This document shows positions 8,410 to 27,359 of a stretch of DNA of 64,000 bases, piece by piece (the first letter of the stretch is position 1; the number at the start of each line of letters is the position of its first letter). The stretch spans positions 1 to 64,000 of the IMG/VR virus record IMGVR_UViG_3300032038_000010; one strand, 5' to 3'. The notes beneath the pieces are model-generated. The model worked only from the letters and a program-made list of their open reading frames with translations. It had not been told where the DNA came from and did no database searches. The DNA is from a virus. Taxonomy: Duplodnaviria; Caudoviricetes. The translations under genes and the position numbers were made by a program.

Positions 8410-9498
8410 GTGATAAATATGTCTTATTTAATTGATTTTATCAAACAGTATCCTAACGATTGGGAAGATAGATTAAATAAAAAGTTAATCACTGTAAAGC
8501 GCCAGGGCGATCTCGCTATCTTTAACTATTCTATTCTCGCGGATTTTACTGATAACTATGTGCGGGAGGCGCGTGGTATCATCATCGACCTGGATACTAT
8601 GCGGGTAGTAGCGTGGCCGTTTACTAAATTCTGCAACTATGGCGAAAAAGGCGCAGATAAAATTGACTGGGCTAGTGCTAAAGTGCAGCAAAAGGTAGAT
8701 GGATCCATCATGAAGGTTTGGTTTTATGATGGTGAATGGCGCGTATCCACTAATGGTGTGATAGATGCGGCGACCGCGATGTGTGGTGGTTCCGGACGCA
8801 GCTTTAAGGATGTATTCGATGAGGCCGCCGCAAATGTAGGACTTGATTATTCTCGTCTGAACAAAGACAATACTTATATCTTTGAGCTGGTATCAAAATA
8901 TAACCGTGTAGTTATTGATTATGACTGCGAGCCTACCTTATGGCATACTGGGACTAGAAATAATATTACTGGATTGGAGTCTGTAGAGAACATAGGAGTT
9001 AAGCACCCCGCAGAATATCCGCTTCACTCTATTGATGCTTGCATTGAGGCAGCCGCACATTTGAATGATGGCAAGACTGCTATTGAAAATGAGGGGTTCG
9101 TGGTAGTTGACGCTAACTGGCACCGCGTAAAGGTCAAAAGTCCAGCGTATGTTGCTATTCATCATCTAATCCCAAATGGTGAAATCTCAGATCAAAAGAT
9201 CATAGAACTAATCCATGGCGGTGATTTGGATGAAATTCTAACTTATATTCCTTCTTTGAAAGAGCGAGTGACCGCACTTAGTGAGAAGATTGATAAAGTA
9301 GCACAAGAGGTTGATGAATACTGCTATTGGAATCAGATTGAAGTACATGATAACAAACTCTCTCGTGGAGAATGGGCGCGCGCACATAATAAGGATAAGT
9401 ATTTTGCTTTTGGAGTAAAGTGCATCTTCGATGGAGTCGAGCCTGATATAAAAAATTTAAGTAGCAAAAAATTGTATGAAGTAATCAGTAAGGAGTAA
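8410..9498 (+). CDS. RNA ligase, T4 Rnl1-like
   Basis: EARGII, PFTKFCN, motif I KVDGS, FEL, EGFVV, RVKVK. Confidence 0.85.
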   Translation: MINMSYLIDFIKQYPNDWEDRLNKKLITVKRQGDLAIFNYSILADFTDNYVREARGIIIDLDTMRVVAWPFTKFCNYGEKGADKIDWASAKVQQKVDGSIMKVWFYDGEWRVSTNGVIDAATAMCGGSGRSFKDVFDEAAANVGLDYSRLNKDNTYIFELVSKYNRVVIDYDCEPTLWHTGTRNNITGLESVENIGVKHPAEYPLHSIDACIEAAAHLNDGKTAIENEGFVVVDANWHRVKVKSPAYVAIHHLIPNGEISDQKIIELIHGGDLDEILTYIPSLKERVTALSEKIDKVAQEVDEYCYWNQIEVHDNKLSRGEWARAHNKDKYFAFGVKCIFDGVEPDIKNLSSKKLYEVISKE

Positions 9499-20298: not shown

Positions 20299-20394
20299 GT
20301 TAGGCGGTCTTAGGTGAAAGACGCATTTGGTTGGCTGCCAAGACCAGAATAGCCATTATGTGCGTGTGGCGCAGTTGGTAGCGCATATGATAAC

Positions 20395-20423
20395 TTGACA
20401 AGTATAAAAATCTTTGATAAAAT
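20395..20423 (+). promoter_or_regulatory. SigA promoter inside the insert
   Basis: TTGACA-17 nt-TAAAAT with extended TG. Confidence 0.8.
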
Positions 20424-20439
20424 GTAAGTATAAAAAAGC

Positions 20440-20511
20440 GGGCGCGTCGCCTAAAGGTATGGCACCAAACTTTTAATTTGGTCTATGTGAGTTCAATTCT
20501 CATCGCGCCTA
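20440..20511 (+). tRNA. tRNA-Lys(TTT)
   Basis: CCAAA-CTTTTAA-TTTGG, GGGCGCG/CGCGCCT. Confidence 0.88.
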
Positions 20512-20538
20512 TAGAATTAAAAAGGAGATTTTTATACT

Positions 20539-20970
20539 ATGTCAAGAGCAGAAAATAAAATAAAAGGTAATATTGGAGAAGCTGCAATTTTATTTGAATT
20601 TGTAAAAAGACAAATCCCTGTGTCCATTCCTTACGGTGATAATGAAAGGTATGATTTAATTGCTGAATTTAATGGCAAGTTAAATAAAATTCAAATAAAA
20701 TATTGTAGCCAAGAAAGTAGTAATGATGGTGTTATCTGTCCATGTGCTAGTAGCTATAATCATACTTCAACAAGAACTGGTTGGGAAGATTATACAAAAG
20801 ATGGAATAGATTATTTTTGTTTTTGGATTGCTCCTGACGACTTAGTTTTAATTATTCCCATCTCTGAAATAGGAGAACAAAAGAGTATAACTTTTAAAAG
20901 AACTCCTGCTAAAAATGGACAAGCTACAAGATTGATGCAAGATTATACCTTTGATAAAATGTTTTCTTAA
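20539..20970 (+). CDS. PD-(D/E)XK homing endonuclease (PDDEXK_5 / I-Ssp6803I-like)
   Basis: KGNIGEA...PYGDNERYDLI...KIQIK...IDYF. Confidence 0.8.
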   Translation: MSRAENKIKGNIGEAAILFEFVKRQIPVSIPYGDNERYDLIAEFNGKLNKIQIKYCSQESSNDGVICPCASSYNHTSTRTGWEDYTKDGIDYFCFWIAPDDLVLIIPISEIGEQKSITFKRTPAKNGQATRLMQDYTFDKMFS

Positions 20971-21013
20971 ATCATAGTGTCGTGGGTTCAAGTCCCACCA
21001 CGCACATGGATCT

Positions 21014-21086
21014 GGCGCGTTCTTCTAATTGGCTAGGATAGGGCCCTTTCAAGGTCCAGATATGGGATCGTTCCCCGTACTCGCTA
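21014..21086 (+). tRNA. tRNA-Glu(TTC)
   Basis: GGGCC-CTTTCAA-GGTCC. Confidence 0.85.
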
Positions 21087-23120: not shown

Positions 23121-23203
23121 CGGTAGGTATGCCTAGCAGCGAGGGCAAGACACTGTAAATGTCCCACATAGAAACATCGTTGGTGCAAGTCCAACCCTGC
23201 CGA
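23121..23203 (+). tRNA. tRNA-Tyr(GTA)
   Basis: loop CTGTAAA, long variable region. Confidence 0.82.
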
Positions 23204-23650: not shown

Positions 23651-23723
23651 TGGGGTGTAGTTCAGTTAGCAGAACGCGTCGCTTGGGACGACGAGGTCGC
23701 AGGGGCAGGACCTGTCACTCCAA
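23651..23723 (+). tRNA. tRNA-Pro(TGG)
   Basis: CGTCG-CTTGGGA-CGACG. Confidence 0.85.
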
Positions 23724-24422: not shown

Positions 24423-24493
24423 TGGGGTATAATATAATAGCAGTATAGTGGTCTCTGACACCAACAATTCAAGTGCAACTCTTGATACCCCAG
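24423..24493 (+). tRNA. tRNA-Gln(CTG)
   Basis: loop CTCTGAC, U1-A72, G73. Confidence 0.82.
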
Positions 24494-24504
24494 GTTATTT
24501 TTAT

Positions 24505-24575
24505 AGCGGATTCGTATAATAGTAGTACAGGAGCCTTTGAAGTTTCTGGCGGGGGAGCGTAACCCTCATCCGCTG
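24505..24575 (+). tRNA. tRNA-Gln(TTG)
   Basis: loop CTTTGAA, G73. Confidence 0.78.
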
Positions 24576-25859: not shown

Positions 25860-27359
25860 ATGAACACTTTTATGAATGGTCTGAAAAATTTTGGCAATAT
25901 GACTTATACAGAAAACGGGGCAGCCGCACTGAAGTCGACAGGAAGCGCAGTTTATGATATGTTTGCGGTTGGCGCTTCATATCGTAATAGATCTGATGAA
26001 GATATTATTCTTCTTTTCAAGAACGCTCTTGAAGAGAATGAATCACTTGCGCTCAAGTGCCTCTTCTATATCAGGGACATTCGTGGCGGGCAAGGAGAAA
26101 GACGCTTCTTCCGTGTAGCGTATAAGTGGCTGGCTAACACATATCCAGCTATTGCTGAACGTAATTTAAACCAGTTTTCTGAGTATGGACGTTGGGATGA
26201 TCTTGTATATATCTGTCTTAATACTCCTCTTGAGGATAAGGCTATGAAGATTATCCGTGATCAGATTAATCTTGATCTTGAGTCCAAAACCCCCTCACTT
26301 TTGAGCAAGTGGCTTCCGTCAGAAAACGCTAGCTCCGAAGATACTAAGAGGGCAGCTCATATCGTTCGTAAGCATCTGGGGCTTACAAGCAAGCAGTACC
26401 GTAAGGTTCTGTCTGAACTGCGTAAGAGAATCAATGTGCTTGAGCGTTTGATGTCTAGTAACCAGTGGGATAAGATAGAATTTGACCAGATTCCATCGAA
26501 AGCGGGGCTAGTCTATAAGAACGCCTTCGCTAGACGCGACATCATCGCTAAGAAGTATGAAGCATTTGCAAAAGATAAGTCAACTAAAGTAAATGCGGGC
26601 GCCCTGTATCCTTACGAGATTGTTGCCAAGGCAGTTAATTACTTTGGTGGCTACTACGGATATGGTAGAGGTGATGATACAGACCGCGCTATGATTGAGA
26701 AGTATTGGGAGAGTCAGAAAGATTATCTCAAAGGATCTAATCTTTCGATGCTTTGTGTTTGCGATACTAGCGGAAGTATGCGCGGCTATAATGCTTCAGC
26801 TCCCATCAATGTGGCTATTGGACTTAGTATGTATGCGGCTGAACGTGCGAATGGTCCTTTCCATAATCATTATATTAGTTTTTCCTCTCGTCCTCAGCTT
26901 ATTGATATTAAGGGCGTAGACTTTGTAGATAAAGTACAACGTATCTATGACACTAACTTATGTAGTGATACTAATATTGAGAAGGTTTTTGATTTACTTC
27001 TTAGTATTGCTCAACAGCCTGGTGTAAAGAAAGAAGATATACCTGGAACCATTGTCATTATATCCGATATGCAAATAAATGCGGCTACGGGTTATTCTAC
27101 TGAATGGACTGAAAATAATAGTCAGCTTGAAATGGAGAAGATTAAATCTAAATGGACAGTCGCAGGCTTTAAAGTTCCTAAATTAATTTATTGGAATGTT
27201 AGTGCAAGAGGTGAAGCAAATATTATTGATCGAGGCCCTGACGTATCATTTGTTTCAGGCTGTTCACCAGTATTATTTGAACAGATACTTTCTGGTAAGA
27301 GCGGAATAGATATTATGATGGACAAGCTGAATAGTGATCGTTATCAAGTAATTCACTAA
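25860..27359 (+). CDS. DUF2828-family protein (TROVE/Ro60-like helical domain plus vWA)
   Basis: TENGA, RDIRGGQGERR, YGRWDDL, KWLPSE, MIDAS DTSGSM, ISDMQ, IYWNV. Confidence 0.85.
   Translation: MNTFMNGLKNFGNMTYTENGAAALKSTGSAVYDMFAVGASYRNRSDEDIILLFKNALEENESLALKCLFYIRDIRGGQGERRFFRVAYKWLANTYPAIAERNLNQFSEYGRWDDLVYICLNTPLEDKAMKIIRDQINLDLESKTPSLLSKWLPSENASSEDTKRAAHIVRKHLGLTSKQYRKVLSELRKRINVLERLMSSNQWDKIEFDQIPSKAGLVYKNAFARRDIIAKKYEAFAKDKSTKVNAGALYPYEIVAKAVNYFGGYYGYGRGDDTDRAMIEKYWESQKDYLKGSNLSMLCVCDTSGSMRGYNASAPINVAIGLSMYAAERANGPFHNHYISFSSRPQLIDIKGVDFVDKVQRIYDTNLCSDTNIEKVFDLLLSIAQQPGVKKEDIPGTIVIISDMQINAATGYSTEWTENNSQLEMEKIKSKWTVAGFKVPKLIYWNVSARGEANIIDRGPDVSFVSGCSPVLFEQILSGKSGIDIMMDKLNSDRYQVIH

What the first reader, a model, noticed from the sequence alone, without database searches (positions are those of the whole stretch)
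20360..21006. Endonuclease cassette that split a tRNA at its anticodon and carries its own tRNA and promoter
Seen: complementary 5' (20360-20390) and 3' (~20970-21006) tRNA halves flank a ~580-nt insert. The insert consists of a consensus promoter, an intact sequence-divergent tRNA-Lys(TTT) and a PD-(D/E)XK endonuclease whose stop abuts the 3' half. There is no room for a ribozyme core. Established: the similar I-Ssp6803I is encoded by a group I intron in a tRNA anticodon loop. Inference: intron-less homing in which the element destroys its target tRNA and compensates with a cleavage-resistant replacement instead of splicing. The split tRNA's anticodon is lost, so its identity as Lys is only a guess.
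Basis: partly seen in the sequence, partly recalled or inferred. Interest (0 to 1): 0.8.

Follow-up and report, generated by a model that had tools for sequence, protein, structure and literature searches.

The report
Homing endonuclease cassette with spare tRNA-Lys
A selfish DNA-cutting gene sits inside a broken phage tRNA gene and, having no self-splicing intron to repair the damage, carries its own intact lysine tRNA gene, probably as a cut-proof replacement for the one it split.

Summary
Two tRNA halves (20360-20390 and 20972-21006) pair in all four stems. They flank a 581-nt insert made of a near-consensus promoter, an intact tRNA-Lys(UUU) and a 143-aa PDDEXK_5 (I-Ssp6803I-family) endonuclease. 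The endonuclease stop codon lies in the residual anticodon loop.

No group I core is present. A lax covariance search finds none here, although the same test gives E 1e-7 on a related intron.

At least seven other uncultured phages carry related half / tRNA-Lys / endonuclease cassettes. Three more have complete pairing halves and the rest are eroded. Their endonucleases form one clade with true group I introns in tRNA-Lys(UUU). The cassette is therefore most likely an ex-intron that lost its ribozyme and gained a rescue tRNA.

The cargo is the phage's only tRNA-Lys. Its anticodon stem differs from the conserved ..GA/TC.. of the targets. A 21-22-bp helix brackets the cargo and hides the endonuclease start site, as in T4 endonuclease genes.

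Cleavage, cargo resistance and lack of splicing are inferred, not tested.

This scan's unchecked notes describe similar spare-tRNA cassettes on other DNA (Arg, Met). I found no paper describing this arrangement.

The parts
20360..20390 (+). 5' half of the split (outer) tRNA: acceptor strand 20360-20366, D arm 20369-20384, anticodon-stem 5' strand TATGA 20386-20390. The anticodon itself is missing.
   Evidence: A homologous half occurs in L045 at 1306-1335, with a compensatory D-stem change.
20395..20423 (+). Internal promoter TTGACA-17-TAAAAT with a TG extension. Its -10 region is one of eight copies of TTTGATAWAAT in the window.
   Evidence: 11 of 12 consensus positions; 8 copies against 0.5 expected, and 0 of 100 shuffles reach 8.
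20394..20416 (+). 5' strand of a 21-22-bp helix that brackets the cargo tRNA. It contains the -35 hexamer, so transcripts started at the internal promoter lack this strand.
   Evidence: dG -21.3 against -7.0 +/- 2.4 for shuffles; z -6.7, 0 of 300 shuffles as good; the helix is in the MFE fold, z -4.6.
20440..20511 (+). Intact cargo tRNA-Lys(UUU). Its anticodon arm is CCAAA/CTTTTAA/TTTGG. It is the only tRNA-Lys in the phage record.
20523..20546 (+). 3' strand of the helix. It covers the ribosome binding site (AAGGAG, 20522-20527) and the ATG at 20539.
   Evidence: Equivalent helices with different sequences occur in L045, L048 and L051.
20539..20970 (+). 143-aa PDDEXK_5 homing endonuclease gene of the I-Ssp6803I family. 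E14, D39, Q52 and K54 are conserved among relatives.
20932..20960 (+). Second promoter-like site (TTGATG-17-TAAAAT with TG) inside the ORF 3' end. It overlaps the conserved FDK codons and might drive the downstream tRNAs.
   Evidence: Function not tested.
20968..20971 (+). TAA stop codon plus one A. By comparison with the group I relatives, whose 3' exon starts TAA, this is the remnant of loop positions 36-38 of the outer tRNA.
20972..21006 (+). 3' half of the split tRNA: TCATA, variable loop GTGTC, T arm, acceptor strand CACGCAC and discriminator A.

Best explanation
This is a non-splicing homing cassette that works on a 'cut and rescue' principle. The PDDEXK_5 endonuclease most likely cuts the anticodon-loop DNA of sensitive tRNA-Lys(UUU) genes in co-infecting phages. 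Repair then copies the whole cassette into the break. The resident tRNA is left split and dead, here with its anticodon deleted.

The cassette supplies an intact tRNA-Lys(UUU). Its anticodon stem (CCAAA/TTTGG) differs from the ..GA/TC.. stem of the targets. The cargo gene is therefore probably not cut, and the phage keeps a Lys decoder.

The lineage began as a group I intron in tRNA-Lys(UUU) and lost both halves of the ribozyme.

Expression is set by a hairpin switch. In read-through transcripts from the tRNA operon, a 21-22-bp helix around the cargo tRNA hides the endonuclease ribosome binding site and ATG. Transcripts from the internal promoter lack the 5' strand of the helix and can be translated.

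Shown: the anatomy, the family membership, the absence of a ribozyme, the recurrence in other phages and the helix. Inferred: the target, the cargo's resistance, homing, and that the halves are never rejoined.
For: - Anatomy and significance of the halves.
- Endonuclease family. Catalytic residues are conserved.
- No group I core. The same truncated-stretch test on relative L003 gives RF00028 positions 1-138 at E 1e-7.
- Recurrence: L032, L045 and L036 have complete pairing halves around tRNA-Lys(TTT) plus the endonuclease. L051, L002, L048 and L052 are eroded versions.
- Tree: the window's endonuclease lies in a 19-row clade (support 94/84). The clade holds nearly all the Lys-cargo loci, and the tRNA-Lys group I introns L003 and L037 are nested inside it.
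- Cargo anticodon stems have A-T or C-G at pair 30:40 in 8 of 9 distinct cargos. All 11 targets or outer halves have G30-A31/T39-C40.
- The cargo is the only tRNA-Lys in the 136,945-bp record.
- Helix over the ribosome binding site. The same logic is described for I-TevI, segB and mobE (PMC2988022).
Against: - No empty allele of this tRNA was found, so the insertion point and the original anticodon are reconstructed, not observed.
- The stem 30:40 contrast comes from related, non-independent loci, and no cleavage data exist.
- The cargo tRNAs of the window and of L045 are unrelated although the outer halves are homologous. Cargo and endonuclease therefore do not always travel as one unit.
- The outer stems are all intact. 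This is unexpected for a long-dead gene, but it is explained if the insertion is recent or the flanks are co-converted.
- The phage has RNA ligases (and scan note e1-5757075), so RNA repair cannot be formally excluded.
Confidence: 0.6

Rival explanations
1. The split tRNA is still made functional. The insert is removed from the RNA by proteins: RNase P and 3' processing release the cargo tRNA, another endonuclease trims the ends, and a phage Rnl1- or Rnl2-type ligase reseals the anticodon loop.
For: - The phage encodes a T4 Rnl1-like ligase at 8410-9495.
- All four stems of the outer tRNA are intact.
- More distant relatives ('class B') have a conserved helix that pairs the anticodon with the last 3 nt of an ORF-only insert: 132 of 160 pairs in register against 58-71 of 160 when shifted. 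This hints at RNA-level selection in that branch.
Against: - The window has no anticodon in either half. No simple join gives a canonical 7-nt loop with U33.
- No helix links the two junctions. The leader against the ORF end gives -8.6, against a shuffle mean of -10.3.
- Releasing the cargo tRNA would leave tails of 49 nt and about 460 nt on the halves.
- Relatives show decay of the outer tRNA: L051 lacks the 3' anticodon strand, and the halves of L002 do not match.
- An earlier scan case of the ORF-only type had the 'proteins join the halves' claim priced at 14/100 on later checking (e1-144097).
Confidence: 0.07
2. The endonuclease is an ordinary free-standing gene beside tRNA-Lys, as in T5-like phages and mycobacteriophages. 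The flanking halves come from an unrelated rearrangement between tRNA genes, not from the endonuclease cutting that tRNA.
For: - PDDEXK_5 genes lie free between intact tRNA genes in Pectobacterium phage My1, Escherichia phage SelmaRatti and Mycobacterium phage Wilder.
- L042, L044, L047 and L053 have tRNA-Lys plus the endonuclease with no clear flanking halves.
- The cargo tRNAs are not co-phyletic with the endonucleases.
Against: - The break lies exactly in the anticodon loop, the site where this family's introns sit.
- The ORF stop codon coincides with loop positions 36-38, just where the 3' exon of the group I relatives begins.
- The same layout recurs around outer tRNAs with different acceptor stems in at least four phages.
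- A half-finder score of 16 was never reached by chance.
Confidence: 0.15
3. The cargo tRNA-Lys is kept mainly as a counter-defence tRNA, a decoy or replacement against host anticodon nucleases that cut tRNA-Lys(UUU) (PrrC or PARIS type). It merely hitch-hikes with the endonuclease. Immunity to the endonuclease is incidental.
For: - tRNA-Lys(UUU) is the classic anticodon-nuclease target, and T4 answers it with Rnl1 and Pnk (established knowledge).
- This phage has an Rnl1-like ligase.
- The cargo has an unusual 3-bp D stem and a divergent anticodon stem.
Against: This is not exclusive of the main reading. Analogous cassettes with other spare tRNAs (Arg, Met) are noted elsewhere in the scan, and Asn(GTT) directly upstream of endonucleases in L088 and L090. 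This points to a rule of 'same tRNA as the target' rather than a Lys-specific defence role.
Confidence: 0.1

Closest known systems
I-Ssp6803I and its group I intron in the Synechocystis PCC 6803 tRNA-fMet gene (655-nt intron, 150-aa ORF; PMC1995217, PMC3384342, PMC3073962)
   Same: The endonuclease family is the same (PF11645; a direct hit to PDB 2OST). The niche is the same: the anticodon loop of a tRNA gene.
   Different: No ribozyme is present here. The insert has its own promoter and a complete second tRNA gene, and the interrupted tRNA has lost its anticodon. It is in a phage, not a cyanobacterium.
Group I introns with PDDEXK_5 genes in phage tRNA-Lys(UUU) and tRNA-Asn(GUU), found here (L003, L037, L049, L055, L065, L068, L070, L073)
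   Same: The endonucleases are 50% identical. The tRNA-Lys introns L003 and L037 fall in the window's clade; the Asn introns fall in the neighbouring clade. The 3' exon starts TAA plus a TCAxx stem strand, as in the window.
   Different: They keep a leader of about 100 nt that matches RF00028 positions 1-138 and a tail of about 50 nt ending in G. They have no cargo tRNA.
Phage T4 SegB and 'intronless homing' by free-standing endonucleases (PMC2988022; Brok-Volchanskaya 2008, cited there)
   Same: It is a free-standing endonuclease in a phage tRNA cluster with its own promoter. A hairpin hides the ribosome binding site and is bypassed by an internal promoter.
   Different: SegB is a GIY-YIG enzyme, lies between intact tRNA genes and cuts an intergenic site. 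It does not sit inside a broken tRNA and does not carry a replacement.
Genes split by homing endonuclease insertion (Aeh1 mobE in nrdA, T4 mobA in gene 39/60; PMC2988022)
   Same: The endonuclease is inserted directly into a gene without an intron or intein.
   Different: In those cases the two protein pieces reassemble. Here the function is probably supplied by a second complete gene copy inside the insert.
Synthetic 'Cleave and Rescue' (ClvR) gene drives
   Same: The logic is the same: a nuclease destroys a useful gene, and a linked cleavage-resistant copy rescues carriers.
   Different: This element is natural, the rescued gene is a tRNA, it is in a phage, and it spreads by homing into the cut site rather than by killing non-carriers.

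Membership tests
PDDEXK_5 / I-Ssp6803I-type homing endonuclease | Sequence match to the family model above the curated cut-off | tested here: met
   PF11645 at 90.8 bits against a cut-off of 26.1, E 1e-25. PDB 2OST at E 3e-4.
PDDEXK_5 / I-Ssp6803I-type homing endonuclease | Conserved catalytic positions (E ... D ... Q/E-x-K) | tested here: met
   E14, D39, Q52 and K54 are invariant in 7 relatives. They align with YD...QVK of I-Ssp6803I.
PDDEXK_5 / I-Ssp6803I-type homing endonuclease | Site-specific double-strand cut in the insert-free allele | not testable with these tools
   Needs an in vitro cleavage assay. No empty allele was found.
Group I intron | Catalytic core detectable by the covariance model RF00028 | tested here: not met
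   No hit at E <= 1 over 17-27 kb. No hit at E <= 10 on 20350-20545 with lax filters. The positive control L003 gives E 1e-7.
Group I intron | Enough non-coding RNA for P3-P9 (about 200 nt) and a terminal G before the 3' exon | tested here: not met
   Only 49 + 27 + 1 nt lie outside the tRNA and the ORF. The base before the TAA is T.
Free-standing homing endonuclease (intronless homing) | Own promoter and ribosome binding site, not embedded in a splicing element | tested here: met
   Promoter at 20395-20423, AAGGAG at 20522-20527, and no ribozyme.
Free-standing homing endonuclease (intronless homing) | A linked cleavage-resistant allele of the target gene | tested here: inconclusive
   The cargo stem is CCAAA/TTTGG, against ..GA/TC.. 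in all 11 targets. 8 of 9 cargos differ at pair 30:40. Resistance itself is untested.
Archaeal-type split or BHB tRNA intron | A helix with bulges that joins the two exon-intron junctions | tested here: not met
   There is no pairing between the junctions beyond chance.
   The rule holds in 14-15 of 16 class B loci. In the window the anticodon is absent and the pairs fail.

The most novel reading that the evidence does not exclude
The cassette is a natural cleave-and-rescue drive for a tRNA. The endonuclease eliminates sensitive tRNA-Lys(UUU) genes in competing phage genomes, and the linked tRNA-Lys is immune to it. Phage tRNA arrays would then be remodelled by selfish elements that bring their own tRNAs. 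Ribozyme loss after gaining a rescue gene would be a general exit route for mobile introns.
Probability: 0.45. Interest if true: 0.75.

Novelty: new variant of a known kind. Interest (0 to 1): 0.6.

Why it matters
Homing endonucleases are thought to survive inside genes only by hiding in self-splicing introns or inteins, or by sitting between genes. This element suggests a third solution: break the gene and carry a spare.

It also gives a concrete evolutionary series within one endonuclease clade, from a group I intron in tRNA-Lys to a ribozyme-less cassette with a rescue tRNA.

It would help explain why phage tRNA arrays are so variable. It would also explain why gene callers miss tRNA fragments there, and how tRNAs that matter for counter-defence could spread between phages.

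The predicted specificity switch at anticodon-stem pair 30:40 can be tested directly with short DNA duplexes.

Tried and rejected
- Group I intron in the window: rejected (control).
- Group I remnant in the L052 spacer: none found. The 3' tail of L003 was not recognised either, so the 3' half of the ribozyme in the true introns is unconfirmed.
- A helix joining the window's two junctions, BHB-like or class-B-like: none.
- Empty allele: exact and degenerate pattern scans of the viral and metagenome collections found none.
- A scan with the 3'-half pattern hit mostly Gly(GCC) tRNAs plus three Lys(TTT) tRNAs. This is only weak evidence for Lys, because the pattern fixed most of the matching positions.
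- Similar DNA in cultured phages: only tRNA-Met hits.
- Half-finder scores of 14 or below are unreliable: 19% of shuffles reach 14. Those loci were judged by eye and with ARAGORN joins.
- RNA ligases in phages with ORF-only inserts: an Rnl2-type ligase in the L007 phage, none in Enterococcus phage EFP01. Inconclusive.
- MFE fold of the nested tRNA-like element in L033: not better than shuffles.

Full report
**What is in the window**

The window is the first 64 kb of a 136,945-bp uncultured phage record, estimated 89% complete. It has a long tRNA array on the + strand. At 20360-20390 lies a canonical tRNA 5' half, and at 20972-21006 a matching 3' half. All 21 pairs of the acceptor, D, anticodon and T stems are Watson-Crick. 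My half-finder gives the top score of 16, which 0 of 310 searches with shuffled upstream sequence reached. ARAGORN calls a cloverleaf for almost any join of the two parts.

The 581-nt insert holds TTGACA-17-TAAAAT with a TG extension. It also holds tRNA-Lys(UUU) at 20440-20511, an AAGGAG ribosome binding site, and a 143-aa ORF at 20539-20970. The ORF matches PF11645 PDDEXK_5 at E 1e-25. It also hits the crystal structure of I-Ssp6803I (2OST) directly. Residues E14, D39, Q52 and K54 are invariant among relatives.

**No ribozyme**

Outside the tRNA and the ORF only 77 nt remain. Rfam finds no group I intron over 17-27 kb. It also finds none in a short-stretch search of 20350-20545 with lax filters. 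The same kind of short-stretch search on the leader of a related element (L003) gives RF00028 positions 1-138 at 34 bits, E 1e-7. The negative result is therefore meaningful. The two junctions do not pair with each other. No simple deletion restores a canonical loop with U33. The anticodon is gone.

**Relatives**

A profile scan of IMG/VR returned 80 loci out of more than 350 relatives. They fall into three layouts.

- *Class A.* These are true group I introns in tRNA-Lys(UUU) or tRNA-Asn(GUU). The leader is about 100 nt and the tail about 50 nt ending in G. The 3' exon starts TAA plus a stem strand such as TCAAG.
- *Class B.* The insert is almost only ORF and lies exactly between positions 36 and 37. 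Occupied L007 and empty L008/L009 show this directly. A helix pairs the anticodon with the last three bases of the insert and then continues. In register, 132 of 160 pairs form, against 58-71 of 160 when the register is shifted. The helix co-varies over five different anticodons. One member is in cultured Enterococcus phage EFP01.
- *Class C.* This is the window's type: tRNA half, intact tRNA-Lys(UUU), endonuclease, tRNA half. L032, L045 and L036 also have complete pairing halves. L051, L002, L048 and L052 are eroded versions.

The outer tRNA of L045 is homologous to the window's and has a compensatory D-stem change.

**Descent**

In the endonuclease tree, a 19-row clade (support 94/84) contains the window and nearly all the Lys-cargo loci. 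The tRNA-Lys group I introns L003 and L037 are nested inside it, and class B forms a separate clade. In class C the stop codon TAA occupies the place of exon positions 36-38. The base after the 5' stem strand begins TAA(A), as the class A intron does. L002 and L048 still keep (T/C)TTTT in the broken loop.

I conclude that the outer tRNA was most likely tRNA-Lys(UUU). The cassette is an ex-intron that lost both ribozyme halves and gained a promoter and a spare tRNA. Both conclusions are inferences.

**Rescue and resistance**

The cargo is the only tRNA-Lys in the whole record. All 11 class A exons and class C outer halves have G30-A31/T39-C40 next to the loop. Of 9 distinct cargo tRNAs, 8 have A-T or C-G at pair 30:40, and the ninth has an altered loop. 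I-Ssp6803I reads a 23-bp pseudo-palindrome with uneven fidelity and leaves 3' overhangs (PMC3384342, PMC2175346). A stem change could therefore give immunity. This is an untested inference, and the loci are related to one another.

**Regulation**

A helix of 21-22 bp (20394-20416 with 20523-20546) encloses the cargo tRNA. It covers the ribosome binding site and the ATG (z about -6.7). Its 5' strand contains the -35 hexamer. RNAs started at the internal promoter therefore lack that strand. Helices with other sequences but the same placement occur in L045, L048 and L051. This is the arrangement described for I-TevI, segB and mobE in T4-type phages (PMC2988022). The -10 element belongs to a motif, TTTGATAWAAT, found 8 times in the window against 0.5 expected.

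**Comparison with what is known**

The enzyme is a member of the I-Ssp6803I family, but the element is not a group I intron. It behaves like a free-standing endonuclease that homes without an intron, yet it sits inside the gene it broke. Genes split by endonucleases are known for proteins (mobE, mobA). I found no paper describing a linked spare copy of the broken gene.

This scan's own unchecked notes describe similar cassettes with spare tRNA-Arg or tRNA-Met, as well as ORF-only inserts, on other DNA. One bold claim there, that proteins join the halves, was later priced at 14/100. I give that reading 7% for this window.

**Verdict**

The best explanation is a ribozyme-less cut-and-rescue homing cassette (confidence 0.6). 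It is a new variant of a known kind. Interest is 0.6.

Noticed in passing
L007 8176-8732; L010 932-1471; L030 17694-18243; L092, L094-L096, L098, L100, L104, L105; L139 (Enterococcus phage EFP01, KY549443 about 105.2-105.8 kb): 'Class B' inserts consist of little more than a PDDEXK_5 ORF, placed exactly between tRNA positions 36 and 37, and the insert does not end in G. The last 3 nt are the complement of the anticodon (TGT/ACA, ACG/CGT, GAT/ATC, GTT/AGC, TTT/AAA). The helix runs on for about 10 bp or more, and a CATTG motif lies next to it. In register, 132 of 160 pairs form, against 58-71 of 160 when shifted. The purpose is unknown. It could be protein-dependent excision or an RNase III-type processing stem.
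   Followed up: partly
L033 about 1340-1500 (and L034): A tRNA-like element with acceptor strands GTTTGAG/CTCAAGC, a T arm and an encoded ACCA lies inside the anticodon loop of a tRNA. Removing it would restore CTT+TTAA, a Lys(UUU) loop. The endonuclease follows the composite gene. The element looks built for removal by tRNA-end processing enzymes, but the MFE fold is not better than shuffles.
   Followed up: partly
L002 2770-2890: A tRNA 3' half (T arm plus ATTTCCC) lies directly upstream of a 5' half whose acceptor strand (GGGAGAT) pairs with it. A second unrelated 5' half follows. The array is either permuted or repeatedly broken.
   Followed up: no
window 21014-21086, 23121-23203, 23651-23723, 24423-24493, 24505-24575: Five tRNA genes are found by Rfam but missed by ARAGORN. 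By eye their anticodons read TTC (Glu, weak acceptor stem), GTA (Tyr), TGG (Pro), CTG and TTG (Gln).
   Followed up: partly
window 9645, 14639, 17149, 20413, 20950, 21165, 24818 (+ strand) and 8435 (- strand): TTTGATAWAAT, an extended -10 motif, occurs 8 times against 0.5 expected. It is probably the phage's early promoter signature. The copy at 20950 lies in the conserved FDK codons of the endonuclease. With the copy at 20413 it forms a 14-nt direct repeat, CTTTGATAAAATGT.
   Followed up: partly
L007 8260-8661, L002 about 3060, L004 about 3068: In-frame TAG codons in the endonuclease genes of relatives align with Gln in homologues. Those phages therefore read TAG as a sense codon. The window's own endonuclease has no TAG.
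   Followed up: partly
window 8410-9495 and 25860-27356; L007 1965-2561: A T4 Rnl1-like RNA ligase (PF09511) and a DUF2828/DUF7788 protein flank the tRNA array. The related phage L007 carries a ROOL RNA at 301.8 bits inside its tRNA array.
   Followed up: no
L140 (Pectobacterium phage My1), L141 (Escherichia phage SelmaRatti), L142 (Mycobacterium phage Wilder): In cultured phages, PDDEXK_5 genes annotated as hypothetical proteins sit directly between tRNA genes. These are probably unrecognised homing endonucleases of tRNA arrays.
   Followed up: partly
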